A stretch of DNA of 64,000 nt from Candidatus Kaiserbacteria bacterium (GCA_016182485.1 JACPGH010000002.1:26608-90607), one strand, 5' to 3'. Counted from the stretch's first letter, positions 6,666-53,432 are shown. A program made the numbers and translations. Notes: a model not told the origin generated them from the letters alone.

Positions 6666-7862
6666 ATGCGTTCCCGCCGTAAGAGTCATCAGCGAACATA
6701 TCTGGATGCCGCCGCGGGGTGGGACGGGCCTTCGCCACGCCGGAGCGGGCTATGGCCTCGCGGAGGCGGGAATCCGTCGTCGCCGCATGCGGAAGGCCGA
6801 ATGGCCCGAGAGATTCTTGAGGGAGCTCGCACGGTGGTCGCGCGTCTGCTTGAAGTGCAGGCGGACGACGTAATATTCACGAGCGGCGCGACGGAGTCGA
6901 ACGCGCTCGCGATACTGGGAGTTGTAAGGGCTTGCCGCAATCCCGCGGCTCGCCTGCATGTGCTGTATGCGCCCGGCGCGCATGCATCCATCGTTGAGAA
7001 CGTGAAGCTGCTTGCGGCGGAAGGGGCCGAGATCGAGCCTCTGCCGATGCGCGATCGCCAGGTGGACTGCGCCGCGCTCGCGAAACTTTTGCGCCCGAGT
7101 ACAGCACTCGTCACGATGGAGGCCGTCTGCGGCGAGACAGGAGTCATTTGGAATACGCGGGAAGTGGCGAGCGTCATACGCGAGCCATCCCGAGCGCAGC
7201 GAGGGATAATGTTGCATGTTGACGCCTCGCAAGCGCCGCTCACCGAGAAGGTAACGCGCGCGCATTTCGGTGCCGATCTTCTGACTCTTGACGGTTCGAA
7301 GATCGGGGCGGCGCGCGGGGTCGGCGCGCTCATTGCGCATCGCACTATCCCGCTTGCCCCTCTTTATCTAGGCGGCGGTCAGGAGCGCGGCGTGCGGCCG
7401 GGCAGTGAGGCGCCGCATTTGGCAGAAAGCCTCGCCAAGGCTCTAAGTCAGGCCGCGGCCGGCCGCGATGCGTTTCGCATCGCGGCCGAGGCCGCCCGGA
7501 CGGATCTCATTTCCCGCCTCACGGCTGCGATTCCTGACATATATATAAATGAGGGCCGGCCGGGTCGGCAGGTGCCGCACATCTTGAACGTGTCCTTGCC
7601 CGGCCGCGATACGGATTTCCTCGTCGCCCTCCTCGACGAAGCCGGCTTCGCAGTTTCCACAAAGAGCGCCTGCGAGACGGATTCCGAGACTGGTTCTCGA
7701 CCCGTCCTGGTTCTTTTCGGGGACGAAACCCGCGCTCGTTCGACATTAAGGATTTCCTGGAATCCCGAAGCCGATCTCTCGCGTCTCCGCTCTTTCGCGG
7801 ACGCGCTTACGCGAGCAGTCGCATTTTCCGCCGGCGGAGTTGACGATAGGGGCAGTGGGTAG
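6666..7862 (+). CDS. cysteine desulfurase (NifS/IscS family, class V aminotransferase)
   Basis: Motifs YLDAAA, GNPSSPH and FTSGATESNA are present, plus the PLP-lysine motif DGSKIGAARGVGAL. Confidence 0.85.
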   Translation: MRSRRKSHQRTYLDAAAGWDGPSPRRSGLWPRGGGNPSSPHAEGRMAREILEGARTVVARLLEVQADDVIFTSGATESNALAILGVVRACRNPAARLHVLYAPGAHASIVENVKLLAAEGAEIEPLPMRDRQVDCAALAKLLRPSTALVTMEAVCGETGVIWNTREVASVIREPSRAQRGIMLHVDASQAPLTEKVTRAHFGADLLTLDGSKIGAARGVGALIAHRTIPLAPLYLGGGQERGVRPGSEAPHLAESLAKALSQAAAGRDAFRIAAEAARTDLISRLTAAIPDIYINEGRPGRQVPHILNVSLPGRDTDFLVALLDEAGFAVSTKSACETDSETGSRPVLVLFGDETRARSTLRISWNPEADLSRLRSFADALTRAVAFSAGGVDDRGSG

Positions 7863-7878
7863 CATTATAGATATTGTT

Positions 7879-8646
7879 ATGAATATTGAGGAACTTTCTA
7901 AATCTCAGCTCATACTTCTCACTATCCTCGTCAATTTCGTCATGTCGGTCGCGACCGGCATCGTGACCGTATCGCTCCTCGATCACGCTCCCGCGTATGT
8001 CACGCAGACGGTCAATCGCGTAGTCGAACGCACTATTGAGACAGTGGCGCAGGCGGCGCCCGCTGCTATCATTCAGGCGCCCGCTCCGTCCAATCAGGAT
8101 CTCGTCACTGCCGCCATCGGAGCGGGAGCGGCGCGCGCCGTAACCATCTACGCCGCCGAGACGGGCACTTCGACTCCGGCGATAGCGGTGGGCACGTACC
8201 TGCCGAAGGCGCGCGCCATCGCCACCGCCTCCCAGGATGCGTTGCCGAAAGAGGTTCTTATCAGGTTCACTGACGGCTCGCATATCGCCGCCTCGCTCGC
8301 TCATAAGGGCGACGGGATTTCCATTTACGGCTTCGCCGACAAGGCCGTATTGCCGAAAGCCGCTTCTCCTGCGCTCATCTCGCCAAGCGACTTAAAGCTC
8401 GGGCAGACGGTCCTCGCGCTCTCCGCAGACGGTTCGGCCGCGACCGGGATAGTGGCGCGGGTCGATAAGGAAGGTATCCGCACAACGCTCCCGGACATAG
8501 GCGCCGGCAGCGCGGCGGTAGATCTTGCCGGCAACCTGGTCGGCATAGGCGCCGGAGAGACGCCCGGGCTCCTCCTAAGCGCGAATACCGTAATGAATCT
8601 CCTTACCGCCACGTCTTCTGTCGTAGCTCCAGTCTCGGCTAGATAA
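7879..8646 (+). CDS. membrane-anchored protein with a degenerate trypsin-like peptidase fold (catalytic Ser motif not conserved)
   Basis: It has an N-terminal TM helix. The C-terminal half resembles an S1 beta-barrel, but GSAAVD replaces GNSGGP. Confidence 0.45.
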   Translation: MNIEELSKSQLILLTILVNFVMSVATGIVTVSLLDHAPAYVTQTVNRVVERTIETVAQAAPAAIIQAPAPSNQDLVTAAIGAGAARAVTIYAAETGTSTPAIAVGTYLPKARAIATASQDALPKEVLIRFTDGSHIAASLAHKGDGISIYGFADKAVLPKAASPALISPSDLKLGQTVLALSADGSAATGIVARVDKEGIRTTLPDIGAGSAAVDLAGNLVGIGAGETPGLLLSANTVMNLLTATSSVVAPVSAR

Positions 8647-11364: not shown

Positions 11365-11440
11365 TGTGAAGGTCTGACCTTCACATCGAAAAAGTCTGAT
11401 AAAATATACGTATATTGTATGTGAAGGTCTGACCTTCACA
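11365..11440. repeat. paired 21-bp perfect palindromes TGTGAAGGTCTGACCTTCACA x2 (locus 1, 34-nt AT-rich spacer)
   Basis: Exact 10-1-10 palindromes sit at 11365..11385 and 11420..11440, between convergent clpB and a minus-strand small gene. Confidence 0.85.
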
Positions 11441-16142: not shown

Positions 16143-17855
16143 TCACATCCGCGTCTTAAGCATGTCGCGCTTGATATCGTCGAAGGGGTCGATTGCTTGT
16201 CCCGAGCTTTGTCGAGGGACTTTTTTCCCGGGATTGAAAAGGTTAGTCGGATCAAAAATGTGCTTCGTTCGCTCGAAGAGCCGCATCATCTCCTCGCCGA
16301 ATACGAGCGGGAGGTAGGGCGTGCGGATGATTCCGTCGTTGTGCTCGCCGGTCGTCGTGCCGCCCTCCTTCACCACTAGATCGTAGACGCGCGGCCCGAG
16401 CTCGAGGATCACCTGTCGGTTCTCTTCCTTAGAAAGATCCATGAGCGGGATGATATGGAAGTTGCCGTTCCCGACGTGTCCGGCGATCGTGTACACGAAG
16501 TGCGAGGCGTATTCCTGTACGAGCGCATCGAGTTTCGGCAGGAAATCCGGATAGCTTGCGGGCGGCACGACGAAGTCGTCGATAAAGGGCGCCGTGTGCA
16601 GGTCGTGCACGTTCTTGCGCAGAAGATTGAAGCTCTCGCGCCGCACTATCCAATATTTCTCCGACTCTTTCTCATTCTTTTCTATTTTCGTTTGCAGATG
16701 CAGATCCGCCAATGCTGCCTCGGCCGCCGACGCTTTCGCGTCGGCGGCTTCCAGAGTATCTTCGGCAAATTCCGCCATTAGAAGCAGCTTCGGCACGCCG
16801 CCGGTCGCGACCAGCGCGGCCTCGGGAATGAATTCGATGCCGAGGCGAGCGGCCTTTACGAAGCCCATCTGGGCGAGCATTTGCGGAATGAATTTCACCG
16901 CGAGCTTGAAGGTGTGGTCGTCATAGGACTCGAACGATTCCGGTTCCTCGGCGAGGATGCGTTTAACGATCTCCGGCAGGGGAGCGAGGTCGTGCAGGAA
17001 GATTACGAGCATCGCGCGGTGCTCTTTCGGCCTGACGAGCGCGAGTTTCGCCTTCGTCCAGAGCGCGAGCGTGCCCTGGGAGCCGCAGATGAGCTTGGCT
17101 AGATTGAACGCGCCGGTTTGCGCGTCGCGAATGCTCCAGAGCGCGTAGCCGGCGGAGTTTTTCGAGACTTTCGGCCGGTGCGCTGCGATCAGCGCCGCAT
17201 TTTCAGAGAGAAGCGCGTCCATTTCTCGATAAATTTCGCCCTCGAGCGTCTGCAGTTTCTTTTTCTCCTCGACTTCGCCCGGAGTGAGCGATTTAAAAGT
17301 GGCTAACGAGCCGTCGGAGAGGACGACGTCGAGCTCTTCGACATATTTCTCTGTTTTGCCGTATTTAAGAGTGCGCTCTCCGCCGGAATTGTTCGCCACG
17401 ATGCCGCCCATCGCGCACAGCTCGCGGCTCGCGGGATAAGAAGGGAGGAGAAGTCCTTTTTCGAGCGTGGCCTTCTCAAAGTCGCGATAGAGCACGCCTG
17501 GTTCGGTGACGGCGAAGCCACCTATACCTCGCTGCGGCTCGGTATCTTCGCTGTGCTCGACCTCTCCGATGTGGTTCAGGTGTTCAAGGGAAACTACGAC
17601 GCTCCGCGTGAGCGGGCCGCCGGACATGTCAGTGCCGGCGGCCCGTGCTGTGAGCGAAACGTCAGGCCGTTCACCCTGAGCTTGTCGAAGGGCCTTCACG
17701 AGCGCGCTCACATCCTCCGCGTCTTTCGGGTACGCGACCAGCTCCGGCCTCCGTTCGAAAAGAGAAGTATCCCGCGAGAATTTCGTGAGCGTCTCCGCAT
17801 CATCCGCCACTTCTCCCCGAATCGCCGCCCCCAAGATATTTTTTAAATTTGCCAT
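16143..17855 (-). CDS. FAD-linked oxidase (GlcD / D-lactate dehydrogenase family, PCMH-type FAD-binding domain)
   Basis: The N-terminal FAD-binding domain reads PKDAEDVSALVKA...AAGTDMSGGPL. The MANLKNIL start is preferred. Confidence 0.8.
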   Translation of the reverse strand: MANLKNILGAAIRGEVADDAETLTKFSRDTSLFERRPELVAYPKDAEDVSALVKALRQAQGERPDVSLTARAAGTDMSGGPLTRSVVVSLEHLNHIGEVEHSEDTEPQRGIGGFAVTEPGVLYRDFEKATLEKGLLLPSYPASRELCAMGGIVANNSGGERTLKYGKTEKYVEELDVVLSDGSLATFKSLTPGEVEEKKKLQTLEGEIYREMDALLSENAALIAAHRPKVSKNSAGYALWSIRDAQTGAFNLAKLICGSQGTLALWTKAKLALVRPKEHRAMLVIFLHDLAPLPEIVKRILAEEPESFESYDDHTFKLAVKFIPQMLAQMGFVKAARLGIEFIPEAALVATGGVPKLLLMAEFAEDTLEAADAKASAAEAALADLHLQTKIEKNEKESEKYWIVRRESFNLLRKNVHDLHTAPFIDDFVVPPASYPDFLPKLDALVQEYASHFVYTIAGHVGNGNFHIIPLMDLSKEENRQVILELGPRVYDLVVKEGGTTTGEHNDGIIRTPYLPLVFGEEMMRLFERTKHIFDPTNLFNPGKKVPRQSSGQAIDPFDDIKRDMLKTRM

Positions 17856-17958
17856 TGTGCACAGTATAACCTTTCCACGCATATGCACACTTCATGAAGT
17901 GCTAGCCCCCGCTTAAAACACGGCGGGAAATGGGCCTCCTAAAGCGTCGGGAAAATAC

Positions 17959-18531
17959 CTAAAAAGTCTCTAGAGCAAGCCTCGCGCCGACGACAAACGA
18001 AAACTCCTTTTTGGCTTCGGCTTCTTCTTTAAGTTGTGAAAGCAGCGACGAGCGCAGGGGTTCGTTAGTACGAAAACACTTATCTATGGCCTTTTGTATG
18101 CGATTTAGCAGCTCCTGTCGGCGCTCTAAAAGTTCGGTCCGATTGAGCTCAATGTCGATAATTGTTAGTTCACCCCTCTCACTACCACCCCTCTGGAAGA
18201 TATATGCCCCTGAAGCCACTACAGAATCATTCGGATCTTCCGAGTAAGGGTTAATATACGGCATTCTATCCTCGTACTTGGTCCCTTTGGCGTTATTGCA
18301 TCGCTGGCAGACGAAACCGAGATTATTCCACTCGAACTCGAGTTCAGGATATCTACCCTTAGGCTGGATGTGCTCGACATCGCCAAATGATGTATCTCTG
18401 ACGTAGGCTTCGCAGTACATACATTTACCACTGGAGGCATCGATTAAAGCCGCCTTGTTATCTGCGTGCTTATAATCGCCAGCCGTAAGTCGGTCAGGTC
18501 TTGGACAGGTCGGGCGATGCAGTCTGATCAT
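17959..18531 (-). CDS. ptuB: HNH endonuclease, Septu PtuB-like
   Basis: Length 190 aa with CMYCE...DVEHIQPKG...FVCQRCNNAKG (His-Me finger). Its start overlaps the stop of the upstream ATPase gene (ATGA). Confidence 0.65.
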   Translation of the reverse strand: MIRLHRPTCPRPDRLTAGDYKHADNKAALIDASSGKCMYCEAYVRDTSFGDVEHIQPKGRYPELEFEWNNLGFVCQRCNNAKGTKYEDRMPYINPYSEDPNDSVVASGAYIFQRGGSERGELTIIDIELNRTELLERRQELLNRIQKAIDKCFRTNEPLRSSLLSQLKEEAEAKKEFSFVVGARLALETF

Positions 18532-19754
18532 TGCGCTTTATCTTCAGCCAGACGATAAATCGCTTCCGGCATCAATCTTTCGAGGCCTATCTCTTTCAAT
18601 TTGTCGCGCATCCGCAGGAGATCTTCTTTGGTAAGGTCCTTCTTCTCAGTATATTCTTTAGTGATTCGTGCCAGATCCTCTTCTGCCCAGATTGGCATCG
18701 TAAAGCTGACACCGAGCACTTCATCCAAAACCTCTGTTGCGGTTCTTGGTTTATCAACCAAGTCAAGCACTTCAGAGTAAACTTTTCCCTCCTTATACCT
18801 GAGTGCTACCACGGTAGAATCACGCACTGATGTCACAATAAGGGGACTGTGGGTACTTATGACAAATGATGCCTTCGGGAAGGCTTTCAAAAGATCTGAG
18901 AGTATCCTCCTCTGCATAGTCGGGTGTAGATGATTTTCCACCTCGTCAATTACGACAACGAAATTATCACGCTTATCGGTTGAGAACATATGTATTTGCC
19001 AAGCCAAGTCAATCATCGTGCTGATTCCACCTGATGCCGCATCAAGAAGGAACTCTCCACTGTCGCAGCAAAACACTATTTCTTGATCCCGGATCTCAAG
19101 TTTTCTAAAACCAAGACTTTTTGGCAGAACTACCTTAAGTACATTTTCAAAATCACGAAAATGCTGTAATAAATCCTCTCGTCCCGGCATAACTGGGTTC
19201 CCATAACCAAAGATATTCCAAGAAACCAGAATCTCTTTCATATGGTAGCTCGATGGAGCACCGCCGCCACCTGAGTAACGATTGCGTACGCTCTCTGATA
19301 TCCTCAAAAAAGCGTCCTCCTTACTAAAGGTTTGGCGCAGCGGCAGGCTGCCCAGCTGCTGATAATTGAATGTCGACCTGTGCGAGGGGATAAAGAATCC
19401 CTCCACATTTTGCTGCCCCCTTATAGTCAGAGTGTATTGTGCTTGCCCAACCAATGGTGCGTGAAGCACAGCTTTTACATCATCGTCATAGATAATTTCG
19501 CCAACATCGTCGCTTGATTTATCCAAGAGGCCCGAAAACCATTCGAGTGTGGAAGTAAGCAGATTCTTTCTAGGAACAGCAAGGCTCATAGAAGACCAAC
19601 CGAAGTGAGAAGCCAAAATGCTCTTGAGAATTGTGGTTTTCCCACTACCGTTGGCACCGGTAATGATAGTCATCCGCCGATGAAAAGGGATTTCAATATT
19701 CCCAAACTGTTGCCACCCTGTGATTTTCAGTTTCTTAAACATATGTTCAATCAT
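18528..19754 (-). CDS. ptuA: AAA_21/ABC-type ATPase, Septu PtuA-like
   Basis: Walker A is GANGSGKTT, the signature-like motif is ASGGIS, Walker B is VVVIDEVENHLHP, and the H-loop is STHSP. Paired with the HNH gene in a lower-GC region. Confidence 0.65.
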   Translation of the reverse strand: MIEHMFKKLKITGWQQFGNIEIPFHRRMTIITGANGSGKTTILKSILASHFGWSSMSLAVPRKNLLTSTLEWFSGLLDKSSDDVGEIIYDDDVKAVLHAPLVGQAQYTLTIRGQQNVEGFFIPSHRSTFNYQQLGSLPLRQTFSKEDAFLRISESVRNRYSGGGGAPSSYHMKEILVSWNIFGYGNPVMPGREDLLQHFRDFENVLKVVLPKSLGFRKLEIRDQEIVFCCDSGEFLLDAASGGISTMIDLAWQIHMFSTDKRDNFVVVIDEVENHLHPTMQRRILSDLLKAFPKASFVISTHSPLIVTSVRDSTVVALRYKEGKVYSEVLDLVDKPRTATEVLDEVLGVSFTMPIWAEEDLARITKEYTEKKDLTKEDLLRMRDKLKEIGLERLMPEAIYRLAEDKAQ

Positions 19755-19820
19755 TGTAACGCTTTTTAAGAATCCAGTACGCCTTATTTTCTATCGGTTG
19801 GAGTTTGTTTGTCATACAGA

Positions 19821-21401
19821 TTACGACACCCATTCCTCTCTTATTCTCCAATCAGTCCTTGGAAACATACTGAGATTAGAAGCCACCATTGTGCTACGCG
19901 GGTCGTCGAACGAGATCGTGACTGAAAACGATCCGTCAGCGTTACGTTTCGGTCGTGCAGAGGAGGCCTTGCTGTACATTTGATACTTTAATCGTAATTC
20001 GACACCATCGTCTTTCTTTTTGAACTTGTTCATTAGAACATCTATCTCATCAAGTGCAGCTCGAATTGTCTCTGGTTTGTTATCACCTAAGTAGTAGGTA
20101 CCATCATAAAGTGCTGCAGAACCACTTTGATTTTCGATTTTTTCAATCTCCAAGTACTTATTTTTTGACCAAAATGAACGTGAATATTTTTCTCCGTTAA
20201 ATAGTGGCGTATTACTTTTGATAACAAACTCGATTGCTCTATGGCCAGTTGCGTAGATGTAAAACAGACAGCCCTGAACTTCTTTGTCGAGTGTTGCTTG
20301 TTGCGCCTTGTGTTGAAGAGCAGAACTATTTCTCCTGAAGAGTATAGGAAACCAATAACCGATCCGGTTATATCTAGTTCCTCCTTGATCAAACGGTTTT
20401 CCATCAACTTTCCATTCGGTAGCAGCTTCATACGCAGCTAAATCACCGACATTCATTACCACGCCTTCTTCCTCCACCATAATATTTAGTCCCATTGTCC
20501 CCTCGTATTTCTTTCGCTCGAACATCGCATAATTTCCATTCGGGAAATGCATTTTGAATCCAGTAAGACCCTCATCCGGAGTTGACAGGAACTCAAGGAC
20601 TTCGAGGTCACGCATTATTCTGTATTTAGAGCCACTAGCTAGTCCCTTTCGTACTTGCTTATAAGTTATGAAGAACGCTGAATAAAAAGCGAAGCACCGA
20701 GAAAGCATATCTGACAACTTCTCAAGACTGATTGATCTGGCACCAATATCCGCACCTTCAATGATACGGAACTCTTCATCAGAGATCGTGTAGTCGGAAT
20801 GATAAAAGGCATTTCTTACTTCATTGTTGAAGAATCCGTCAATGATCTCCCCGATTCGTTCCTCGCCCGACGCAGCCGCCAATTCTTTTATGTAGCTGAT
20901 CTTTTGTCTTGGATATGGCAAATGTCGTCTTGGGAAAAGGCCTTCGGTTTTCCGTTCGACTGTAACCAAATGATCAAAAGGATACATTTTGTATGGTTGG
21001 TCCATACAACATCGCAGTAAGTTTGTTATGACTTCATATGGAGCTGACATTTCGGTTGAATGGCAGTAGAGAAATAGCGCCATTCTTAGCGCCCTCTTCT
21101 CTTGTCCTTTTCCCATTTTCCGCATCATTTTGCTGAAGTCCATTGCGGTATCTTCTGCTTCTACGAACGCATCCCAATGTCCGTCGGTGATTCCTTCTAC
21201 ACGAAGGATTGTGTAGAGATACGTAAAGCCATTTGTATCGCCAGCACGACTGAACAAATGATTGAAATATTCGAGATATTCATCTGTATATTTAGAGAGT
21301 AGGGTCGTGTCTCGTGCGCGCAACCATTTGCGAATCTTCTTTGTGGGCCAAGTCGCGATGTCTCTCATTTCCATAGCTAAGCCATTATTTTCTGCAAGCA
21401 C
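19821..21401 (-). CDS. hypothetical protein in the defence island (N-terminal helical region with HEPN-like R-x4-H motif VRNAFYH; C-terminal ~300 aa of unknown fold)
   Basis: A long ORF of lower GC, co-oriented with and tightly packed between hsdS and ptuA. I recognise no domain beyond the Rx4H motif. Confidence 0.7.
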   Translation of the reverse strand: MLAENNGLAMEMRDIATWPTKKIRKWLRARDTTLLSKYTDEYLEYFNHLFSRAGDTNGFTYLYTILRVEGITDGHWDAFVEAEDTAMDFSKMMRKMGKGQEKRALRMALFLYCHSTEMSAPYEVITNLLRCCMDQPYKMYPFDHLVTVERKTEGLFPRRHLPYPRQKISYIKELAAASGEERIGEIIDGFFNNEVRNAFYHSDYTISDEEFRIIEGADIGARSISLEKLSDMLSRCFAFYSAFFITYKQVRKGLASGSKYRIMRDLEVLEFLSTPDEGLTGFKMHFPNGNYAMFERKKYEGTMGLNIMVEEEGVVMNVGDLAAYEAATEWKVDGKPFDQGGTRYNRIGYWFPILFRRNSSALQHKAQQATLDKEVQGCLFYIYATGHRAIEFVIKSNTPLFNGEKYSRSFWSKNKYLEIEKIENQSGSAALYDGTYYLGDNKPETIRAALDEIDVLMNKFKKKDDGVELRLKYQMYSKASSARPKRNADGSFSVTISFDDPRSTMVASNLSMFPRTDWRIREEWVS

Positions 21402-22943
21402 TGAATGTTTTCTCGCATTTCTTGGACTTTCTCCACTATCCGTTTCTGCTCAGCGAGAGGAGGGAGCGGCATCGGAATTGGGTAAACACTTATTCCTGAA
21501 ATGACCGGTTGCGCGGAGCCTCGATGGGAGGATCTTAGATTTAAATAATTCAGAACGAGCAAAAAGAACTCCTTATCTAAAAAGTTTTCTGGATAACTAA
21601 CTATAAATGCATTGTCAGTTACCCACGCGTCAGATTCTGTAATATAAGCAGTGCCGCAAAGAGCGCCCACACGCCCTATAACAATCGTTCCCCTTGCTGC
21701 GTTAGAGGATGAGTGACGACCTGCTATGCCATTCCCTCCATAGACGAGATATGGTCCTTCAATGGCCTCGCTAACTTTCAGGGAATCGCCTGAGGATATG
21801 TTCATAACATCTCCAAGGCGAACCCACCTCCACGAAGCTGGGATATTAAATGGCGTGTCTGATGCACTAACAGGAGGAAGAAGTTTTGTTGTTTTGCGTT
21901 TCCGACCGGTGCTTAAGGTCTTTAAGCGCTCTTCTCGAATCTTAAGTAGTAGCTCCTCAGCTGTACCTTCCTTGGCATTTTGCAGGACCAGCTTGCCAGA
22001 CACAGCAAGTGTGAGAACTGCGTTCTCGAGTTCTTTGATATCCGATGGTGATTTTACCAACTCAAATAGATACTGAAGAGGCAGTTTACTGTTGCCATCC
22101 CTGAGATCTCTCATCGCACTTCGTGTAAGACGTGTACGTACTGCGTCTCGTTCTTTCTTTTTCGCCTCTAGCTCGTCAAGGCTGCGCATTACGTCCTTGA
22201 TCTTATCCACCATTCGATCCTGCTCACCAGAAGGCGGTAGAGGTATCTCAATCAGAGGCAATGTGTCGCCATTAAGCGTACGCCCCTTAATGGCATTCGA
22301 CGTTCTTCCGGTTAAATCTAGCGCCGGTAATATATGAAATAAATAGTCTCGTAGAGTTTGGTCAGGACTTATGAACGCTGCAATCGCCTCGTTATGACAC
22401 GCGTCCATCTCTAAAATAGACATCTTACCGATGGTCAGCTTAAAACTAAAAAGCAGGGACCCCAGCGGGGCTTTATAACCACGGAATACTTCCTCCAAAG
22501 CAAGTTCGTTAATGGATTCTTTCGTGGAGTGAATTGTGCTGCCATTTATCAAGTCGGAAATGGAAACCCAAGGAGTGTCTGCGGCTGACCAATACTTGGA
22601 TTCAACGCGCGGCGGTGTTTTCCCCACGCGAAACTCGACGATGTCACCAAGTCGAACCCATTTCCAAGAAACCGGGACCTCAAATGGTACCTCTGTCTGA
22701 TCGACAGGTAATAAAGATTCTTTTCTGCGTCTTCGACCATTCTCGGCAACACCCCGCTGCAATCGTTCACTCTGAATCTTCGCATAGAGCTCTTCTCCCG
22801 TGCCTTCCTTCGGGTCGTGCGGAACTAGCCGTCCAGAGACGGCAAGGGTGAGGACTGCTTTACGAAGACGCTCTATGCCGTCAGGCAACTCTAGAAAGTC
22901 ATCTAGGTTTGCGACGATTGTACGTACATCATTTAGTTCCATT
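21377..22943 (-). CDS. hsdS: type I restriction-modification system specificity subunit
   Basis: Two target-recognition domains are separated by conserved coiled regions (LAVSGRLV...; LAVSGKLV...). The MELNDVRTIV start is preferred. It overlaps hsdM. Confidence 0.85.
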
Positions 22944-24374
22944 GTGCGAGAGGGCGCCCTCCAAAAGCGCTCTGATTTTATCCAGTGCTTTCTTGGTTTC
23001 CTCCTGCTTGGTGCGATAGGTAGCAAGAAGCTCTTCAGGGGATTCGACCAATTCCTTCGGGGCACGAGGATTTTTAATATCAAGGTTGTAGTTCCTTGCC
23101 CGGATCTCGTCGATGGATACTTTCCACGCCTGTCCGTTTTCTTCGCGATTGTTCCACCACACCTTTTCCGGCGCGAACTCATCAACGCTCATAGGATTCG
23201 TCATCGAGTAAGCCTTCTGTCCTTTCGGCAGCGGATGCTCGTAGTACCAGATCTCTTTGGTCGGCTCGCCCTTGGTAAAGAAGAGGAGATTCGTGGCTAT
23301 ACTGGTGTAAGGAGCGAAAACGCTCTTGGGTAAGCGTACGATGGTATGCAAATTACACTCCTCGAGGAGCATCTTCTTGAGTGCGGTTTTCATTCCTTCG
23401 CCAAAGAGAGTGCCGTCGGGTAGAACAACGCCGCAGCGGCCGTACTTCTTGAGCAATCGTACGATAAGCACGAGAAAGAGATCTGCTGTCTCTCGCGTTT
23501 GAAACTCGGTCGGGAAGTTCTTCTCGACGCCCGGCTCCTCTGTGCCGCCGAAGGGAGGATTGGTAACTATGCAGTCGATGCGGTCAGCGTCTGTATAGTC
23601 GCGCAGCGGCTTCTCGAGCATATTGCCGCGGCGCATTGTGACTGGCTCCTCAATGCCGTGGAGCATCATATTCGTGATGAGGAGCATATACGGGAGCGGC
23701 TTCTTCTCCACGCCGTGAATGCTTTGCTGGATTTTCGCTTCGTCTTTGACGGTCTTTACTTGTTTACGGAGGTGCTCAAGCGAGTTTACGAGGAATCCGC
23801 CGGTGCCGGCTGCCGGGTCAAACACCGATTCGCCAACCTTCGGGTCAATCATCTCAACAATGAATTGGGTAACGGCGCGAGGCGTATATAGCTCGCCGTA
23901 GTTCTTTGCGCTCTGAAGGCTCTTAAGAAGACGCTCATAGACCTCGTTGAAAGCGTGCCGATCCTTTGAGGTATTGAAGTCGATCTCGTTCACCTTGTTG
24001 ATGACTTGCTTCAGTAGCGTTCCCTTGCGCATAAAGTTGTTCACGTCTTGGAACGCCATACGCGTAAGCTCTGTACGCTGATTACCATTAGTCGGTAGTG
24101 CACGCAGAGCAGGAATTAGGTCTCCGTTTACGAAAGCAACCAACTGCTCACCGGTCAGCCCATCAAGCGGAGCGGCCCACGTGCGCCACTGATACTCTTT
24201 CGGCAGTGTTGGTGTATATTTTTCCTTCCGTATCTCCAGAGCCCTATCTTCGTCGTCAAGGATCTTCAAATAGATGAGCCAAACGAGTTGCGAGAGGCGT
24301 TGCGCATCTCCGTCTACGCCGATGTCTTGGCGCATTATGTCCTGTATGGCTTTGATGGTAGCGGGGGTGAACAT
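22929..24374 (-). CDS. hsdM: type I restriction-modification system DNA methyltransferase subunit
   Basis: Carries the NPPFGG motif, an AdoMet-binding DPAAGTGGFL motif and an N-terminal HsdM domain. Confidence 0.9.
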   Translation of the reverse strand: MFTPATIKAIQDIMRQDIGVDGDAQRLSQLVWLIYLKILDDEDRALEIRKEKYTPTLPKEYQWRTWAAPLDGLTGEQLVAFVNGDLIPALRALPTNGNQRTELTRMAFQDVNNFMRKGTLLKQVINKVNEIDFNTSKDRHAFNEVYERLLKSLQSAKNYGELYTPRAVTQFIVEMIDPKVGESVFDPAAGTGGFLVNSLEHLRKQVKTVKDEAKIQQSIHGVEKKPLPYMLLITNMMLHGIEEPVTMRRGNMLEKPLRDYTDADRIDCIVTNPPFGGTEEPGVEKNFPTEFQTRETADLFLVLIVRLLKKYGRCGVVLPDGTLFGEGMKTALKKMLLEECNLHTIVRLPKSVFAPYTSIATNLLFFTKGEPTKEIWYYEHPLPKGQKAYSMTNPMSVDEFAPEKVWWNNREENGQAWKVSIDEIRARNYNLDIKNPRAPKELVESPEELLATYRTKQEETKKALDKIRALLEGALSHNGTK

Positions 24375-24377
24375 ACG

Positions 24378-24527
24378 TTAGACGATATAGACATTATCGA
24401 GGAGTTCATCCAGCATCCGGAGATATTCATCCTTACCGCCAAAAAGAGAGACGAGTTCGTAATCCGTACCGAGAGAACGAATCGGCTCGAGAGTAAGAAC
24501 ACGTACGCTTTCAATATCCTTGAGAGG
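24378..24527 (-). pseudogene. hsdR: displaced C-terminal segment of hsdR in the +1 frame
   Basis: The alternate frame encodes PLKDIESVRVLTLEPIRSLGTDYELVSLFGGKDEYLRMLDELLDNVYIV* (a typical HsdR tail, FGG...Y). It stops 4 nt before the hsdM start. Confidence 0.6.
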
Positions 24528-26718
24528 CTACGTGCATAATGAGGTCGAACAGATCGAACTCACCACCTACTTGTTTCTGGAGCTCCTCAAGGGGGATTCC
24601 CGTGGCGTCGAGCTGGTCGATGATAGCTTGCCTGCGTTCGGCGGACTGCCAAGCCGTAAAGAAGCTCTCGAGGGTCGGATAGTGATTGAGAATATTCTTG
24701 CGCGTGAAGTCGGTCAGGGATTCGGTTATGAGCTTGCCGTCGGCACCCAAATACTGCACCTGTTCCTTTACGATGGCATAGGGAACGCCGCTTATCGTAT
24801 ATACCGGCGGCCGCCCGATAGGACCTCCTTCTCCGGGACCTGTGATGATCACATCCACGAGCTCGTCTTCCTTTTCTTTTACTTCGATTGGCTCATCTGT
24901 CGGATCTAGCTCTTTCAACACACAGTCGATGTCGTCGTTCTCTCCCACTTCAAACACGCGCTCAGGCACTCCGTCGAATCCGGGGTCAGCGAAAAGTTTC
25001 GTTACGCCCTGAAAATCCATTACCGTGAACCACATTTTGCCTTTATCCTCGCGCACGCGCGTGCCGCGGCCGATGATCTGCTTGAACTCGGTCATACTCT
25101 CAATCGGCTTGTCCAAGACGACGAGCTTGCAGGTTTGTGCATCCACGCCAGTCGAAAGAAGTTGCGAGGTCGTCGCGATTGTCGGGAAGCGCTCTTCCGG
25201 GTCAATGAAGCGGTCAAGCTGATTCTTGCCCTCCTCGTCGTCTCCGGTGATGCGCATTACGTAGCGCACGTTCTCCCGAGCGCGGTCGCCGCCCGCGTTC
25301 ACGAGCGCAGAGCGCATTCGCTCGGCGTGTTCGGTGGTACGACAGAAGACGATAGTCTTTGCGAACGGATCGTCAATCGCGTCCAAGTACTCGATTATCT
25401 TCTTGGCTACCAGCTCATCGCGCTGCGGGAAAATGACCGACTTGTTCACATCGCGAAGCTCATAAATGCGGTCTTCTACAGCATTCCCTTTATCATCCAG
25501 CGTCCCCGGAGAAGGTCGCCATCCGGTAATGTCGTTATCAAGAAGCACACGGAGCACCTTATAGGGAGCAAGGAATCCATCGTCAATCCCTTGTTTCAAT
25601 GAGTATGTGTAAATGGAATCTCCGAAATAATGAGTGGTACTGGTGTCAGTCGTCTCTTTCGGGGTCGCGGTCAGACCGAGGTGAGCTGCGCTCGTGAAGT
25701 GTTCAAGCACCTCGTGCCACTCACTATCAAGTGAGGCACTGCCGCGATGGCATTCATCTACAATAATGAGGTCGAAGAAGTCGGCGGGAAGTCTCTTATA
25801 AAGCTTATCCGGTTCTGTTGGTCCGCTCATAGCCTGATACAGACCGAGGAATATCTGATGCGACATCAGCTTGCCTAGATCGTCGAAGTCGGAGCGAGAT
25901 ATTTTTGTAAGCGCCTCACCGAAATGCTTCAGATCATTTATACGAGCCTGATCAACAAGGATGTTGCGGTCTGCGAGAAAGAGGACGCGCTTTGCGTTTC
26001 CAGACTTCCACAAGCGCCACATAATCTGAGCTGCGGTGTAGGTCTTACCCGTGCCCGTGGCCATAACGAGTAGAAGGCGTCTGCCGCCACGCGCGAAAGC
26101 TTCAACAGCTCGGTCAACGGCGATGCGCTGGTAGTAGCGAGCAAGTTTTATCCCGTCGCCATAGTATTCAGTCTCGACCGCTGAACGTACGGCCGTATTG
26201 TCGCCCTTCCACGCGAGATACCGCGCGTGAAGCTCTGCTGGTGCTGGGAAAGAATCAAGCTCGATCTTCTGTTCTGTCGAGGCAGATTGCCCTGTGCGAT
26301 CGTGAAAGAGGAACGCTTCGCCGTTCGTTGAAAATACAAAAGGCACCTCAAGTGCCGCAGCATAGCCAAGTGCCTGCTGCATACCCGCGCCGAGCGGTTT
26401 GCCGATGTGTTTCGCTTCCACTACGGCGAGAGGCATATTCGGCCGGTGTTCAAGCAGAAAATCGACCTTCTTCCGGTCCCCGCGCTTTACTGTTTTTCCG
26501 CTAACGTGAATACGCCCCTCTGTATAGGCGTACTCTTCCCGTATCTGAGTGTCAGCCCATCCCGAACGCACGATCGCCGGCCTAATCAGGCGATTCCGTG
26601 TTTCTTCCTCGTTTGCGGGTTCTGTGGGCAAGATAAGGCGTATTTTCCCACATTTTTCGTCTTCATTCAATGCTAATAAAAGCGTACTCCGAAATGTCCT
26701 AAGCAGCGATTCTGACAT
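24511..26718 (-). CDS. hsdR: type I restriction enzyme R subunit (frameshifted near C-terminus)
   Basis: It has the N-terminal nuclease domain (VVEAKHIGKPL), SF2 helicase motifs (ATGTGKT, DECHR) and the C-terminal EFDLFDLI motif. Length is only 735 aa. The C-terminus continues in another frame. Confidence 0.85.
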   Translation of the reverse strand: MSESLLRTFRSTLLLALNEDEKCGKIRLILPTEPANEEETRNRLIRPAIVRSGWADTQIREEYAYTEGRIHVSGKTVKRGDRKKVDFLLEHRPNMPLAVVEAKHIGKPLGAGMQQALGYAAALEVPFVFSTNGEAFLFHDRTGQSASTEQKIELDSFPAPAELHARYLAWKGDNTAVRSAVETEYYGDGIKLARYYQRIAVDRAVEAFARGGRRLLLVMATGTGKTYTAAQIMWRLWKSGNAKRVLFLADRNILVDQARINDLKHFGEALTKISRSDFDDLGKLMSHQIFLGLYQAMSGPTEPDKLYKRLPADFFDLIIVDECHRGSASLDSEWHEVLEHFTSAAHLGLTATPKETTDTSTTHYFGDSIYTYSLKQGIDDGFLAPYKVLRVLLDNDITGWRPSPGTLDDKGNAVEDRIYELRDVNKSVIFPQRDELVAKKIIEYLDAIDDPFAKTIVFCRTTEHAERMRSALVNAGGDRARENVRYVMRITGDDEEGKNQLDRFIDPEERFPTIATTSQLLSTGVDAQTCKLVVLDKPIESMTEFKQIIGRGTRVREDKGKMWFTVMDFQGVTKLFADPGFDGVPERVFEVGENDDIDCVLKELDPTDEPIEVKEKEDELVDVIITGPGEGGPIGRPPVYTISGVPYAIVKEQVQYLGADGKLITESLTDFTRKNILNHYPTLESFFTAWQSAERRQAIIDQLDATGIPLEELQKQVGGEFDLFDLIMHVASQGY

Positions 26719-26743: not shown

Positions 26744-26979
26744 CTATGCAACGCGTATTTCGAGATCTTTGATATGTCGTGCTTGGTCGTCAAGTTCAGG
26801 TCGGACAACCTGGTCTATGCGTTGATGCACTTCATGCACGGCTGTTTCCAACTTATCCATGCGGCCTTCAAGTCTATCAAACCGTTTATCAACCTCGTCG
26901 AACCGCTCGTTCATTGCCGAGAATCCGTCCGCTACCATACGCGCAAGGCTATCAATATCATTTTCTTGCTCCTTGGCCA
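26744..26979 (-). CDS. small coiled-coil protein leading the hsdRMS array
   Basis: MAKEQENDIDSLARMVADGF...DKLETAVHEVHQRIDQ. Length 78 aa. It sits directly upstream of hsdR on the same strand. Confidence 0.5.
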
Positions 26980-26987
26980 TTGCCCAT

Positions 26988-27192
26988 AGCTTACCACGAC
27001 AACCACGACCACCCTCACCGAAGCGCAGAAAATATACGATACCAATACAGACAACCGCATCGACGTGCTCGACTTCAATGCGCTCATCGTGCATTGGGGC
27101 GAGACGGGGGCGAATGCCGTTGCCGACTTCGACAAAAACGGAGTCGTGGACGTGTTCGACTTCAATTCATTAATGGTGCACTGGACCGCGTA
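26988..27192 (+). pseudogene. orphan dockerin-domain fragment (C-terminal piece of a truncated gene)
   Basis: The frame opens after a stop at about 26985 with no plausible start. It encodes a T-rich linker plus two dockerin-type Ca-binding repeats (DTNTDNRIDVLDFNALIVHW; DFDKNGVVDVFDFNSLMVHW). Confidence 0.5.
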
Positions 27193-27226
27193 ACCCCGTT
27201 AGAAATATAAGATTACATAAACAACT

Positions 27227-27988
27227 ATGAACACACAACCGAAAAAAATTTCTAACGGGGTGAAAAAGATACTTCTTGCATCCGCATTACTCGCAGCTCT
27301 CGTCCCTGTCGCCGCATTCGCTTCATCTATAACGCTTGCACCCGCGTCGGTTGCGACAACTGAAGGCAAGTCCTTTAGCGTCGCGGTCGCCGTAGATCCA
27401 GCTTCGGGGAAGGCGTACACGGCGCGCGCGAATCTCTCCTTCGACCCGTCGGCAGTAACTCTCGTCGGCTTTTCCTTCGCGCCGAAATGGATGCAGCTGC
27501 CTCAGGAAGGTTATGACCTCGAAGATAATGCCGGAGGCAAGCTCGCGAAGACGGGCGGCTATCCCGGAGGCATTACGACAGCCACAGTCCTTGGCACGGC
27601 TACGTTCCGCGCCAAGACCACTGGCGTTACGACCATCTCGGCAACGGGGGATTCGCTCATCCTAGATGCCAGCAATCAAAACGCGGTTTCCGGAGCGCAA
27701 GGCTCGGTGCGGGTTTCTATAGCGGCCGTGCCGGTCGCGCCGCAGCCCGCAGCGTCTACAGAAACCGCGCCCATTGTCTCGACTGCCGAAGCGGTGCCCG
27801 CCACCACGACGCTCGATCTGGCAGAAGCAGTCACCGAAGCTGGCACCGCAGTAGCGCTCTCGCCGCTCGATTCCTTTCTCACTCTCGGCACGGGCAGCGC
27901 CGCAGTCGCCTCGCTCGTAACGCTTATCGTCCTTCTCGTCGTTGGCGCTGGCATCTGGCTCTGGCGCCGCGAACGGGCTCGGTATTAA
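27227..27988 (+). CDS. cohesin-domain protein with signal peptide and C-terminal TM anchor
   Basis: Has a signal peptide, a cohesin-like beta-sandwich (SITLAPASVATTEGKSFSVAVAVD...YTARANLSFDPSAVTLVGFSF), an Ala/Thr/Pro linker and a TM helix with an RRERARY tail. Confidence 0.65.
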   Translation: MNTQPKKISNGVKKILLASALLAALVPVAAFASSITLAPASVATTEGKSFSVAVAVDPASGKAYTARANLSFDPSAVTLVGFSFAPKWMQLPQEGYDLEDNAGGKLAKTGGYPGGITTATVLGTATFRAKTTGVTTISATGDSLILDASNQNAVSGAQGSVRVSIAAVPVAPQPAASTETAPIVSTAEAVPATTTLDLAEAVTEAGTAVALSPLDSFLTLGTGSAAVASLVTLIVLLVVGAGIWLWRRERARY

Positions 27989-28007: not shown

Positions 28008-28071
28008 TGTGAAGGTCAGACCTTCACAAGCTGTGAATCTGCAATGTCTTCTGTGAAGGTCAGACCTTCAC
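28008..28071. repeat. paired 21-bp palindromes TGTGAAGGTCAGACCTTCAC(A/G) x2 with 23-nt spacer (locus 2)
   Basis: Palindromes at 28008..28028 and 28052..28071. The spacer is AGCTGTGAATCTGCAATGTCTTC. Confidence 0.85.
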
Positions 28072-28163: not shown

Positions 28164-28661
28164 ATGCTGCCATGGATCCAGCAGTTGAACGAGCGGATGA
28201 AGCAGGTCGACACGAGGCCTCTCCTCGAGCAGCTGGAGCTTGGAGCCAAGCTCCAGCCTCATGAGCACATCGTCGGAAAGCTTTCCGATGAGATGCTCCG
28301 GCTCTTCGGCGTCGTCCTCGCGCAGGGGATGGAGATGATTAGCCACATGGGGCGCTGCGCGGATCTGTTCGACCGGCTCCCGGAGATGGAGTCGGAACTC
28401 GAGATCGAGGCGAGGATAAGGCCCCTCATGTCGGAGGGCGCGGAGCTCTCCCGACGGCTACAGCTCACCGAGGACCTGTTCTGGGCGTCGATCATATTCG
28501 AGTTCCCCGAGGCCGCGAACAGGAATCGCGGGATTCGGGCGGGCGGGCGGGTCGTCGTCTGGGAGACCGAAGCCGACCCGCGGCGGATGCGCCAGCAGAT
28601 GGCCGCAGGCGAGCTTGCGGCCATCATAAGCAAGCTGGAGCAAATCCACCTCCGCAACTAG
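28164..28661 (+). CDS. hypothetical protein (165 aa) bracketed by identical 65-bp repeats
   Basis: The start is preceded by AGGAGG. I recognise no domain. Confidence 0.65.
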   Translation: MLPWIQQLNERMKQVDTRPLLEQLELGAKLQPHEHIVGKLSDEMLRLFGVVLAQGMEMISHMGRCADLFDRLPEMESELEIEARIRPLMSEGAELSRRLQLTEDLFWASIIFEFPEAANRNRGIRAGGRVVVWETEADPRRMRQQMAAGELAAIISKLEQIHLRN

Positions 28662-28777: not shown

Positions 28778-28842
28778 TGTGAAGGTCTGACCTTCACAAG
28801 CTGTGAATCTGCAATGTCTTCTGTGAAGGTCAGACCTTCACA
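28778..28842. repeat. paired 21-bp palindromes (locus 3), identical including the spacer to locus 2
   Basis: Palindromes at 28778..28798 and 28822..28842. The spacer is AGCTGTGAATCTGCAATGTCTTC. Confidence 0.85.
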
Positions 28843-31854: not shown

Positions 31855-31919
31855 TGTGAAGGTCAGACCTTCACAAGCTGAGAATTTTCGGCGCTTTCTG
31901 TGAAGGTCAGACCTTCACA
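31855..31919. repeat. paired 21-bp palindromes TGTGAAGGTCAGACCTTCACA x2 (locus 4)
   Basis: Palindromes at 31855..31875 and 31899..31919. The spacer is AGCTGAGAATTTTCGGCGCTTTC. Confidence 0.85.
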
Positions 31920-53366: not shown

Positions 53367-53432
53367 TGTGAAGGTCAGACCTTCACAAGCTATGATATCT
53401 CAAAGTCATACTGTGAAGGTCAGACCTTCACA
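53367..53432. repeat. paired 21-bp palindromes TGTGAAGGTCAGACCTTCACA x2 (locus 5) in the divergent promoter region next to the sigma-54 activator
   Basis: Palindromes at 53367..53387 and 53412..53432. The spacer is AGCTATGATATCTCAAAGTCATAC. Confidence 0.85.

What the first reader, a model, noticed from the sequence alone, without database searches (positions are those of the whole stretch)
26988..27988. Orphan dockerin fragment directly upstream of a membrane-anchored cohesin protein
Seen directly: a 68-codon open frame has no start codon. It encodes a Thr-rich linker and two dockerin-type calcium-binding repeats, and ends 35 nt before a cohesin-domain gene (signal peptide, cohesin, linker, TM). 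Inference: the dockerin-bearing gene was truncated, plausibly by the adjacent island insertion, leaving a cohesin without its cognate dockerin partner. Alternatively, the fragment is translated from an unusual start.
Basis: partly seen in the sequence, partly recalled or inferred. Interest (0 to 1): 0.55.

Follow-up and report, generated by a model that had tools for sequence, protein, structure and literature searches.

The report
Truncated dockerin gene beside orphan cohesin
A small uncultured bacterium (Candidatus Kaiserbacteria) has lost all but the last 67 codons of a secreted "plug" (dockerin) protein, which in every sampled relative sits just upstream of its membrane-anchored "socket" (cohesin) gene; this is a recent, ordinary gene truncation at a rearrangement scar next to a phage-defence island.

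Summary
Window 26990-27193(+) is a 67-codon frame with no ATG. It encodes a Thr linker and a complete two-repeat dockerin (Pfam PF00404, 23.2 bits against a 22.9 cut-off). The next gene (27227/27260-27988) encodes signal peptide, cohesin fold, disordered linker and TM anchor; its top 41 Foldseek PDB hits are all cohesins.

In 11 distinct related CPR loci, an intact 200-410 aa secreted dockerin protein ends 2-24 nt before the cohesin gene. Here only its last ~56-67 codons survive, at 76-80% amino-acid identity to three of those intact proteins. No 5' part lies anywhere in the 64 kb.

The remnant shows no decay: dN/dS is 0.05-0.13, as between intact genes. The junction is identical in four independent assemblies. 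So this is a recent, real 3' pseudogene remnant.

"Truncated by island insertion" is only partly right. A 9-kb low-GC defence island (Septu plus type I R-M) lies beside the remnant. However, the far side of the island carries an FAD oxidase, not the 5' half of the gene. There is no integrase, tRNA or flanking repeat. The remnant directly abuts a displaced native 78-aa gene. The scar therefore reflects deletion or rearrangement, not simple insertion.

Whether the cohesin is truly partnerless genome-wide is untested. Ordinary; modest interest.

The parts
26990..27193 (+). 3' remnant (67 codons plus TAA) of the dockerin-protein gene: Thr-rich linker and a complete two-repeat dockerin. No ATG, no signal peptide. 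Not among the called genes: NCBI tags jump from HYV30_00580 to 00585.
27038..27073 (+). First calcium-binding loop, DTNTDNRIDVLD
27125..27160 (+). Second calcium-binding loop, DFDKNGVVDVFD
   Evidence: the DNA duplication is seen (D1)
26981..27013 (.). Interval that contains the truncation junction, most likely about 26990-26996. To the right, homology to intact dockerin genes. To the left, the start codon of the displaced coiled-coil gene.
27194..27260 (+). AT-rich segment (33% GC) between the dockerin stop and the homologous cohesin start. It is bounded by a perfect 13-14 bp inverted repeat, CCCCGTTAGAAAT (27194-27206 and 27248-27260). Relatives have only about 3-10 nt here. Found only in this organism's contigs.
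   Evidence: (I7)
27227..27988 (+). Intact cohesin anchor gene (NCBI HYV30_00585): signal peptide, cohesin beta-sandwich, disordered Pro/Thr/Ala linker, C-terminal TM helix and basic tail. The homologous start is GTG 27260.
26744..26980 (-). 78-aa coiled-coil gene (NCBI HYV30_00580) whose start codon abuts the remnant. The 116-aa call that extends antisense into the dockerin is spurious.
17959..26718 (-). Low-GC (43-53%) defence island: PtuB HNH (17959-18531), PtuA ATPase (18528-19754), 526-aa unknown (19821-21401), HsdS (21377-22942), HsdM (22929-24374), HsdR (24511-26718)
16143..17888 (-). FAD-linked oxidase gene, the left flank of the island. It occupies the position where a simple insertion would have left the 5' half of the dockerin gene.

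Best explanation
Shown:
- The frame at 26990-27193 is the surviving 3' end of a gene for a secreted dockerin protein: signal peptide, about 90-aa beta-sandwich, linker, C-terminal dockerin.
- In related CPR bacteria that gene lies immediately upstream of, and co-oriented with, the gene for a membrane-anchored single-cohesin protein.
- Everything upstream of the linker is gone from this locus, and the giant surface-protein genes that precede it in relatives are gone too. Their place is taken by a displaced native 78-aa gene and a 9-kb Septu plus type I restriction-modification island.

Inferred:
- In the intact system, the cohesin is held in the membrane by its C-terminal helix and displayed on a flexible linker. 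It captures the secreted dockerin protein through the calcium-dependent cohesin-dockerin interaction, giving a minimal one-socket, one-plug surface-display module.
- A recombination or deletion event tied to acquisition or reshuffling of the defence island cut the dockerin gene inside its low-complexity linker.
- The remnant has no usable start and no signal peptide, so it is a dead pseudogene fragment. It is still undecayed because the event is recent.
- The cohesin gene remains intact. It has lost the operon promoter that would have driven it, and it now sits behind a lineage-specific 66-nt AT-rich hairpin-forming segment. Whether it is still expressed, or binds another partner, is unknown.
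For: Conserved gene pair: all 11 distinct related loci carry exactly one dockerin ORF, ending 2-24 nt before the cohesin gene (L005, L007/L019, L009, L012, L015-L017, L020-L022).

Only the tail survives: tblastn of three of those intact proteins matches the window only at 27023-27190 (76-80% identity, E about 1e-26). No 5' part is found. DNA homology starts at about 27000-27014.

Family size: members are 197-225 or 333-409 aa, apart from a few shorter entries, some flagged partial. The eleven read in full carry an N-terminal hydrophobic leader.

Domain identity: the cohesin fold and the dockerin are confirmed.

Synteny: the right flank is syntenic with relatives (PIF1, PMM, two GH130 genes). 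The left flank is not.

Not a clean insertion: FAD oxidase lies at the far side of the island. There are no flanking repeats, integrase or tRNA. The abutting coiled-coil gene belongs to LemA/NUDIX/M48 loci elsewhere.

Recent event: remnant-versus-intact dN/dS is 0.05-0.13, the same range as intact-versus-intact (0.04-0.22). There are no frameshifts or stops, and all calcium-loop residues are intact.

Real sequence: the junction is identical in four independent assemblies.
Against: - No very close relative was found. The nearest cohesin is 67% identical, and an exact-match scan of JGI metagenomes found nothing. The ancestral state is therefore inferred from different species, and the order of events (island arrival, deletion, rearrangement) cannot be resolved.
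- In the L015-L017 lineage, the FAD oxidase sits downstream of the cohesin. Gene order around this locus is fluid, and I cannot reconstruct a single event.
- The undecayed state of the remnant could in principle also mean that it is still under selection.
- Cohesin-dockerin binding in this family has never been demonstrated.
Confidence: 0.82

Rival explanations
1. Simple insertion: a mobile defence island integrated into the dockerin gene and split it in two.
For: A low-GC (43-53% against about 58%) block carrying Septu and type I R-M ends within 270 nt of the remnant. In L016, the same FAD-oxidase flank carries other defence genes (N6_N4 methylase, GmrSD), which suggests a defence hot spot.
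Against: The 5' half is not at the other end of the island or anywhere else in the 64 kb. There is no integrase, tRNA target or direct repeats. A native-type coiled-coil gene, cut off from its usual LemA neighbour, lies between HsdR and the remnant. The left flank is non-syntenic.
Confidence: 0.08
2. The fragment is a functional mini-gene, translated from GTG 27065 or a non-canonical start, giving a free dockerin peptide.
For: The frame is open and undecayed, with purifying-selection-like dN/dS. An in-frame GTG exists at 27065.
Against: The GTG product (42 aa) lacks the first calcium loop. No Shine-Dalgarno-like purine-rich stretch precedes it (by eye). No start in this frame would supply a signal peptide, yet the partner cohesin is extracellular. 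Full-length homologues are at least 197 aa, and those read in full carry leaders. The low dN/dS is equally expected for a recent truncation.
Confidence: 0.03
3. Assembly or binning chimera: the contig wrongly joins the dockerin-cohesin locus to unrelated DNA.
For: The source is a metagenome-assembled genome. GC changes near the junction.
Against: Contigs assembled independently from four SRA runs are 100% identical across the junction and span 0.5-9.7 kb to its left. They differ from the window by only one synonymous SNP, at 27769.
Confidence: 0.02
4. The promoterless dockerin is a silent cassette kept as a donor for gene conversion into an expressed dockerin gene elsewhere.
For: In near-identical strains of a relative, SNPs pile up in the dockerin module. 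L016 versus L015 has 35 of 45 mismatches within 180 nt, and L017 versus L015 has 11 of 18 within 37 nt. This points to recombination tracts. The window's remnant is closest to the L016 allele (dS 0.57, against 1.76 for the cohesin).
Against: The remnant sits exactly at the ancestral expressed position, directly upstream of the cohesin, so it is what is left of the expressed copy. No second dockerin gene is seen in the window or in any relative's locus.
Confidence: 0.04

Closest known systems
Type I dockerin module (Pfam PF00404) of cellulosomal enzymes, e.g. Clostridium thermocellum or C. cellulolyticum
   Same: A C-terminal module of about 60 aa made of two roughly 22-residue repeats. Each repeat has an EF-hand-like calcium loop (DxNxDxxIDxxD) followed by a helix. 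It scores just above the Pfam gathering threshold. In a related intact family member the module is modelled with pLDDT above 90.
   Different: Here it is detached from any start codon, signal peptide or cargo. In intact relatives the cargo is a small non-enzymatic beta-sandwich rather than a glycoside hydrolase. The organism is a CPR bacterium, not a cellulolytic Firmicute.
Cell-surface anchoring scaffoldins with a single cohesin (e.g. C. thermocellum OlpA/OlpC, R. flavefaciens ScaE) and non-cellulosomal cohesins (Archaeoglobus fulgidus 2xdh, C. perfringens 2vo8/2jh2)
   Same: A cohesin beta-sandwich displayed on a linker at the cell surface. OlpA, OlpC, ScaE, A. fulgidus and C. perfringens cohesins are all among the Foldseek hits.
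   Different: Anchoring is by a C-terminal TM helix with a basic tail rather than SLH repeats or a sortase motif. Sequence identity to solved cohesins is only 8-20%. A profile of the family finds no PDB sequence. There are no carbohydrate-active partners.
Gene truncation at the edge of a defence island (Septu plus type I R-M)
   Same: A low-GC block of PtuA/PtuB and HsdS/M/R next to a broken native gene.
   Different: No integrase, att repeats or tRNA. The scar joins two native gene fragments, so it is not a textbook site-specific integration.

Membership tests
Dockerin (type I, PF00404) | Scores at or above the Pfam gathering threshold | tested here: met
   23.2 bits against a 22.9 cut-off, E 8.3e-5, residues 16-61. 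This is marginal. The four intact relatives scanned score 16.6-20.0 bits, while other family members carry precomputed PF00404 hits.
Dockerin (type I, PF00404) | Tandem duplicated segment of about 22 residues, each with a calcium loop with Asp/Asn at positions 1, 3, 5, 9 and 12 | tested here: met
   DTNTDNRIDVLD and DFDKNGVVDVFD, 29 residues apart. The DNA repeat is 81% identical and 87 nt apart.
Dockerin (type I, PF00404) | Part of a secreted protein (signal peptide plus cargo) | tested here: not met
   The window copy has no start, leader or cargo. This feature is met in the 11 related loci.
Dockerin (type I, PF00404) | Ca2+-dependent binding to a cohesin | not testable with these tools
   Only gene adjacency in 11 of 11 loci supports a cognate pair.
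Cohesin (PF00963) | Matches the Pfam Cohesin model | tested here: inconclusive
   The window protein gives no hit at E<=0.1. Eleven of 19 family members (60-67% identical) do hit, with best E 4.9e-12.
Cohesin (PF00963) | Beta-sandwich cohesin fold of about 140 aa | tested here: met
   In the AlphaFold model, residues 33-166 have block-mean pLDDT mostly 85-98. The top 41 Foldseek PDB hits are cohesins, E down to 7.8e-9, TMt up to 0.79.
Cellulosome | Scaffoldin with multiple cohesins or a CBM, and dockerin-bearing carbohydrate-active enzymes | tested here: not met
   There is a single cohesin and no CBM. The cargo of the dockerin protein has no Pfam family and a transthyretin-like or Ig-like fold. 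There is one dockerin per locus.
Integrative genomic island | Integrase or recombinase, tRNA or att target, flanking direct repeats | tested here: not met
   None found.
Integrative genomic island | Deviant base composition and accessory (defence) cargo | tested here: met
   GC is 43-53% against about 58%. PtuA E 7.8e-150, PtuB 2.1e-61, HsdS 3.8e-75, HsdM 4.1e-201, HsdR 6.3e-262.
Pseudogene (3' remnant) | Homologous to only part of an otherwise full-length conserved gene, at the orthologous position, and lacking a start | tested here: met

The most novel reading that the evidence does not exclude
The dockerin-protein/cohesin-anchor gene pair is a conserved, undescribed minimal surface-display module of CPR bacteria. 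It is found across Kaiserbacteria-like, Paceibacteria and Saccharibacteria loci, with exchangeable cargo. Its dockerin would be a recombination hot spot that lets strains swap plug alleles. In this genome, the intact cohesin would be kept and re-promoted by the lineage-specific 66-nt hairpin segment because it still captures another partner, either a dockerin protein encoded elsewhere in the genome or one from a host or neighbouring cell.
Probability: 0.15. Interest if true: 0.55.

Novelty: new member of a known kind. Interest (0 to 1): 0.3.

Why it matters
The fragment itself is an unannotated pseudogene remnant, useful mainly for correcting annotation. One automatic gene call (116 aa, antisense) runs through it. 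NCBI annotates nothing there.

Its wider value is as a pointer. It exposes a tightly conserved two-gene cohesin-dockerin pair in ultra-small CPR bacteria, which depend on cell-surface contacts with hosts. It also gives a natural knockout of the plug gene with the socket gene still intact. A dockerin-domain protein has been reported as essential in a cultivated Saccharibacterium (PMC10633639), so how CPR cells use these modules is a live question. The truncation itself is not surprising.

Tried and rejected
- Searched for the missing 5' part with tblastn of three intact homologues against all six frames of the window. Nothing found beyond 27023-27190.
- Searched for other dockerins or cohesins in the window with family HMMs and a calcium-loop regex. 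None found.
- Tried to learn whether the same MAG encodes another family member by looking up the names of NCBI-sourced hits. No names or accessions came back, so the genome-wide question stays open.
- Looked for a same-species contig with an intact gene. Exact-protein look-ups returned only the truncated arrangement. An exact 29-mer scan of JGI metagenomes found nothing. The GTDB scan returned only four distant loci.
- Looked for island hallmarks (direct or inverted repeats at the borders, tRNA, integrase). None found.
- Profile search of the cohesin family against PDB sequences found nothing. The fold search was needed.
- Tested for relaxed selection on the orphan cohesin. It has 11 of 109 deviations at conserved columns, against 1-7 in close relatives, and a slightly higher dN. 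Synonymous sites are saturated and the lineage may simply be more distant, so this is inconclusive.
- The promoter scan around the 66-nt segment found one minus-strand match, no more than chance. Rfam found nothing but three tRNAs in the window.
- Tried to reconstruct a single inversion or translocation linking the L015-type order (cohesin, then FAD oxidase) to the window's order. No single event fits.

Full report
**What is there**

Reading the sequence, a TAG at 26987-26989 is followed by 67 sense codons (26990-27190) and TAA. The frame encodes LTTTTTTTLTEAQKIYDTNTDNRIDVLDFNALIVHWGETGANAVADFDKNGVVDVFDFNSLMVHWTA.
- Pfam Dockerin_1 matches residues 16-61 at 23.2 bits, just above the 22.9 gathering score.
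- The two repeats are visible at DNA level as a 36-nt direct repeat, 81% identical and 87 nt apart.
- A calcium-loop regex finds the two loops at 27038-27073 and 27125-27160. Its only other match in the 64 kb is one isolated chance hit.
- There is no in-frame ATG. The only in-frame start is GTG at 27065, which would give 42 aa lacking the first loop.

The next gene is 27227-27988. NCBI calls it HYV30_00585, a hypothetical protein of Candidatus Kaiserbacteria.
- It has no Pfam hit itself, but 11 of 19 homologues at 60-67% identity match PF00963 Cohesin.
- Its AlphaFold model has mean pLDDT 78.6. The helix at 10-24 is read as the signal peptide. A beta-sandwich spans 33-166, a disordered segment 179-212, and a helix at 225-252 is read as the TM anchor.
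- The top 41 Foldseek PDB hits are cohesins, with best E 7.8e-9.
- Homologues start at MKKIL, which aligns with GTG 27260. The ATG at 27227 would add 11 residues.

**What it is a piece of**

I fetched the contigs that encode cohesin homologues.
- In every distinct locus, an ORF with the same dockerin ends 2-24 nt before the cohesin gene. These are L005, L007/L019, L009, L012, L015, L016, L017, and the distant L020 (Paceibacteria), L021 (Saccharibacteria) and L022.
- Each of those ORFs is a complete secreted protein of 204-409 aa.
- The close relatives share an architecture: signal peptide, a domain of about 90 aa beginning PGIPHQFYGT, an optional insert of about 150 aa, a Gly/Thr linker, and the dockerin.
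- The N-terminal domain has no Pfam family. It is modelled as a transthyretin-like or Ig-like beta-sandwich with only weak PDB matches: the SlaB S-layer protein, the PapC C-terminal domain and transthyretin. The cargo therefore looks structural or adhesive, not enzymatic.
- A database search finds about 105 clusters of this protein, mostly 197-225 or 333-409 aa; a few shorter entries include partial sequences. All hits that carry a source name, except one labelled Dehalococcoidia, are labelled CPR or simply "bacterium".
- tblastn of three intact proteins against the window matches only 27023-27190 (76-80% identity, E about 1e-26).

The fragment is therefore the 3' end of this gene, at its orthologous position.

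**How the gene was cut**

- Downstream of the cohesin, the window is syntenic with relatives: PIF1 helicase at 33.3 kb, PMM-like hydrolase, two GH130 genes and more.
- Upstream it is not. Relatives carry giant surface-protein genes there (Big_12, Big_13, Big_5, beta-helix and YDG domains).
- The window instead has three things in that position:
  - a 78-aa coiled-coil gene at 26744-26980(-);
  - a 9-kb low-GC block (43-53% against about 58%) encoding Septu PtuB/PtuA, a 526-aa unknown and type I HsdS/M/R;
  - an FAD-linked oxidase at 16143-17888(-).
- A simple insertion into the gene would leave its 5' half next to the FAD oxidase. It is not there.
- There is no integrase, tRNA or border repeat.
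- The coiled-coil gene starts at 26980. NCBI annotates it as 78 aa. The 116-aa automatic call that runs antisense through the dockerin is not supported by homologues.
- In the three other CPR loci I examined, its homologues lie after LemA or NUDIX, next to an M48 peptidase, and not next to restriction genes. None of those neighbours is in the window.
- The junction lies within 26981-27013, probably about 26990-26996. It therefore joins two native genes that have each lost their upstream neighbour.
- That is the signature of illegitimate recombination or deletion, probably linked to the arrival or reshuffling of the defence island. It is not the signature of clean integration.
- The breakpoint lies in the low-complexity Thr linker.
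- I could not reconstruct a single event. In L015-L017 the FAD oxidase lies just downstream of the cohesin, so this neighbourhood is rearrangement-prone.

**Age and reality of the event**

- The 1-kb junction region is 100% identical in contigs assembled independently from four SRA runs. These differ from the window by a single synonymous SNP.
- The remnant has no frameshift or stop, and all calcium ligands are intact.
- Its dN/dS against intact genes is 0.05-0.13, within the range for intact pairs (0.04-0.22).
- The truncation is therefore recent compared with the divergence from sampled relatives.

**How it most likely works, or worked**

Inference from established cohesin-dockerin biology: the membrane-anchored cohesin displays the secreted dockerin protein on the cell surface. 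This would be a minimal one-socket, one-plug module, placed beside giant adhesin-like genes in organisms that live attached to other cells.
- In this genome the plug gene is dead. It has no usable start and no signal peptide.
- The socket gene is intact but has lost its upstream operon.
- It is now preceded by a lineage-specific 66-nt AT-rich segment bounded by a perfect 13-14 bp inverted repeat. As RNA this folds at -19.4 kcal/mol, z = -4.0. Its role is unknown.
- A test for relaxed constraint on the cohesin was inconclusive.
- Whether another dockerin exists elsewhere in the genome could not be tested.

**Comparison with what is known**

The modules are bona fide members of the dockerin and cohesin families (see the membership table). 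The system is not a cellulosome: it has a single cohesin, no CBM and non-enzymatic cargo. Non-cellulosomal cohesin-dockerin modules are known in bacteria and archaea (my own knowledge: Peer et al. 2009; also the A. fulgidus and C. perfringens structures among the hits). A dockerin-domain protein is reported as essential in a cultivated Saccharibacterium (PMC10633639). In the literature searches I ran, I found no description of this conserved CPR gene pair.

**Verdict**

This is a real, recent, unannotated 3' pseudogene remnant at a rearrangement scar beside a defence island. It is an ordinary kind of event and a new member of known families. Interest is modest (0.3). The conserved CPR cohesin-dockerin pair and the recombination hot spot in its dockerin are the more interesting leads.

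Noticed in passing
window 11366-11439, 28009-28071, 28779-28841, 31856-31918, 53368-53431: A 19-21 nt perfect palindrome, (T)GTGAAGGTC[A/T]GACCTTCAC(A), occurs 10 times, always as pairs 44-55 nt apart with a semi-conserved spacer (0.01 matches expected by chance). This looks like a REP/BIME-like or operator-like repeat. The Logan contigs L001-L004 all end inside the 28.0-kb pair. Two pairs bracket the 165-aa ORF at 28164-28661.
   Followed up: partly
window 27194-27260: A 66-nt AT-rich (33% GC) segment with perfect 13-14 bp terminal inverted repeats (CCCCGTTAGAAAT) lies between the dockerin stop and the homologous cohesin start. Relatives have only about 3-10 nt there. It is unique in the window and found only in this organism's contigs. 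Its stem includes the GTG start. It could be a tiny insertion, a new promoter or 5'-UTR element, or a translational hairpin.
   Followed up: partly
L015:7135-7314 versus L016 and L017: Between near-identical strains of a relative (98.8-99.8% identity over 5-8 kb, identical cohesin genes), mismatches pile up in the dockerin module. L016 versus L015 has 35 of 45 within 180 nt. L017 versus L015 has 11 of 18 within 37 nt of the first calcium loop. This suggests gene-conversion or recombination tracts. The window's remnant is closest to the L016 allele.
   Followed up: partly
window 26744-26980 (-); L023, L027, L029: In the three other CPR loci examined, the 78-aa coiled-coil gene lies in a LemA-(cc)-NUDIX-(cc)-M48 peptidase neighbourhood. 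Here it is isolated between HsdR (25 nt away) and the dockerin remnant, with breakpoints on both sides. One automatic call extends it to 116 aa, antisense through the dockerin.
   Followed up: partly
L015:8233-9945, L016:2138-8565; window 16143-17888: In the L015-L017 lineage, the FAD-linked oxidase lies immediately downstream of the cohesin, convergent with it. In the window it lies upstream, across the island. In L016, the oxidase's 5' flank carries other defence-type genes (N6_N4 methylase, GmrSD). That flank may be a defence-island hot spot in two lineages.
   Followed up: no
window 19821-21401 (-): A 526-aa ORF (GC 43%) sits between the Septu pair and the type I R-M genes. It has no Pfam or PADLOC match and may be an uncharacterised defence-island passenger.
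   Followed up: no
L020:3922-5142, L021:6656-7270, L022:4266-5201: Distant CPR loci (Paceibacteria, Saccharibacteria, unclassified) keep the dockerin-protein-then-cohesin gene order. L021 and L022 have different N-terminal cargo domains, which suggests a modular display system with exchangeable cargo.
   Followed up: partly
L005:19026-20718 versus window 6666-8400: In L005, the aminotransferase block follows the cold-shock gene that lies at 44.5 kb in the window. In the window, that block lies 20 kb upstream of the cohesin. The 6.7-17.9 kb block and the 27-44.7 kb block are therefore in swapped order relative to L005, which is further evidence of a large rearrangement with a breakpoint at the dockerin remnant.
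   Followed up: no
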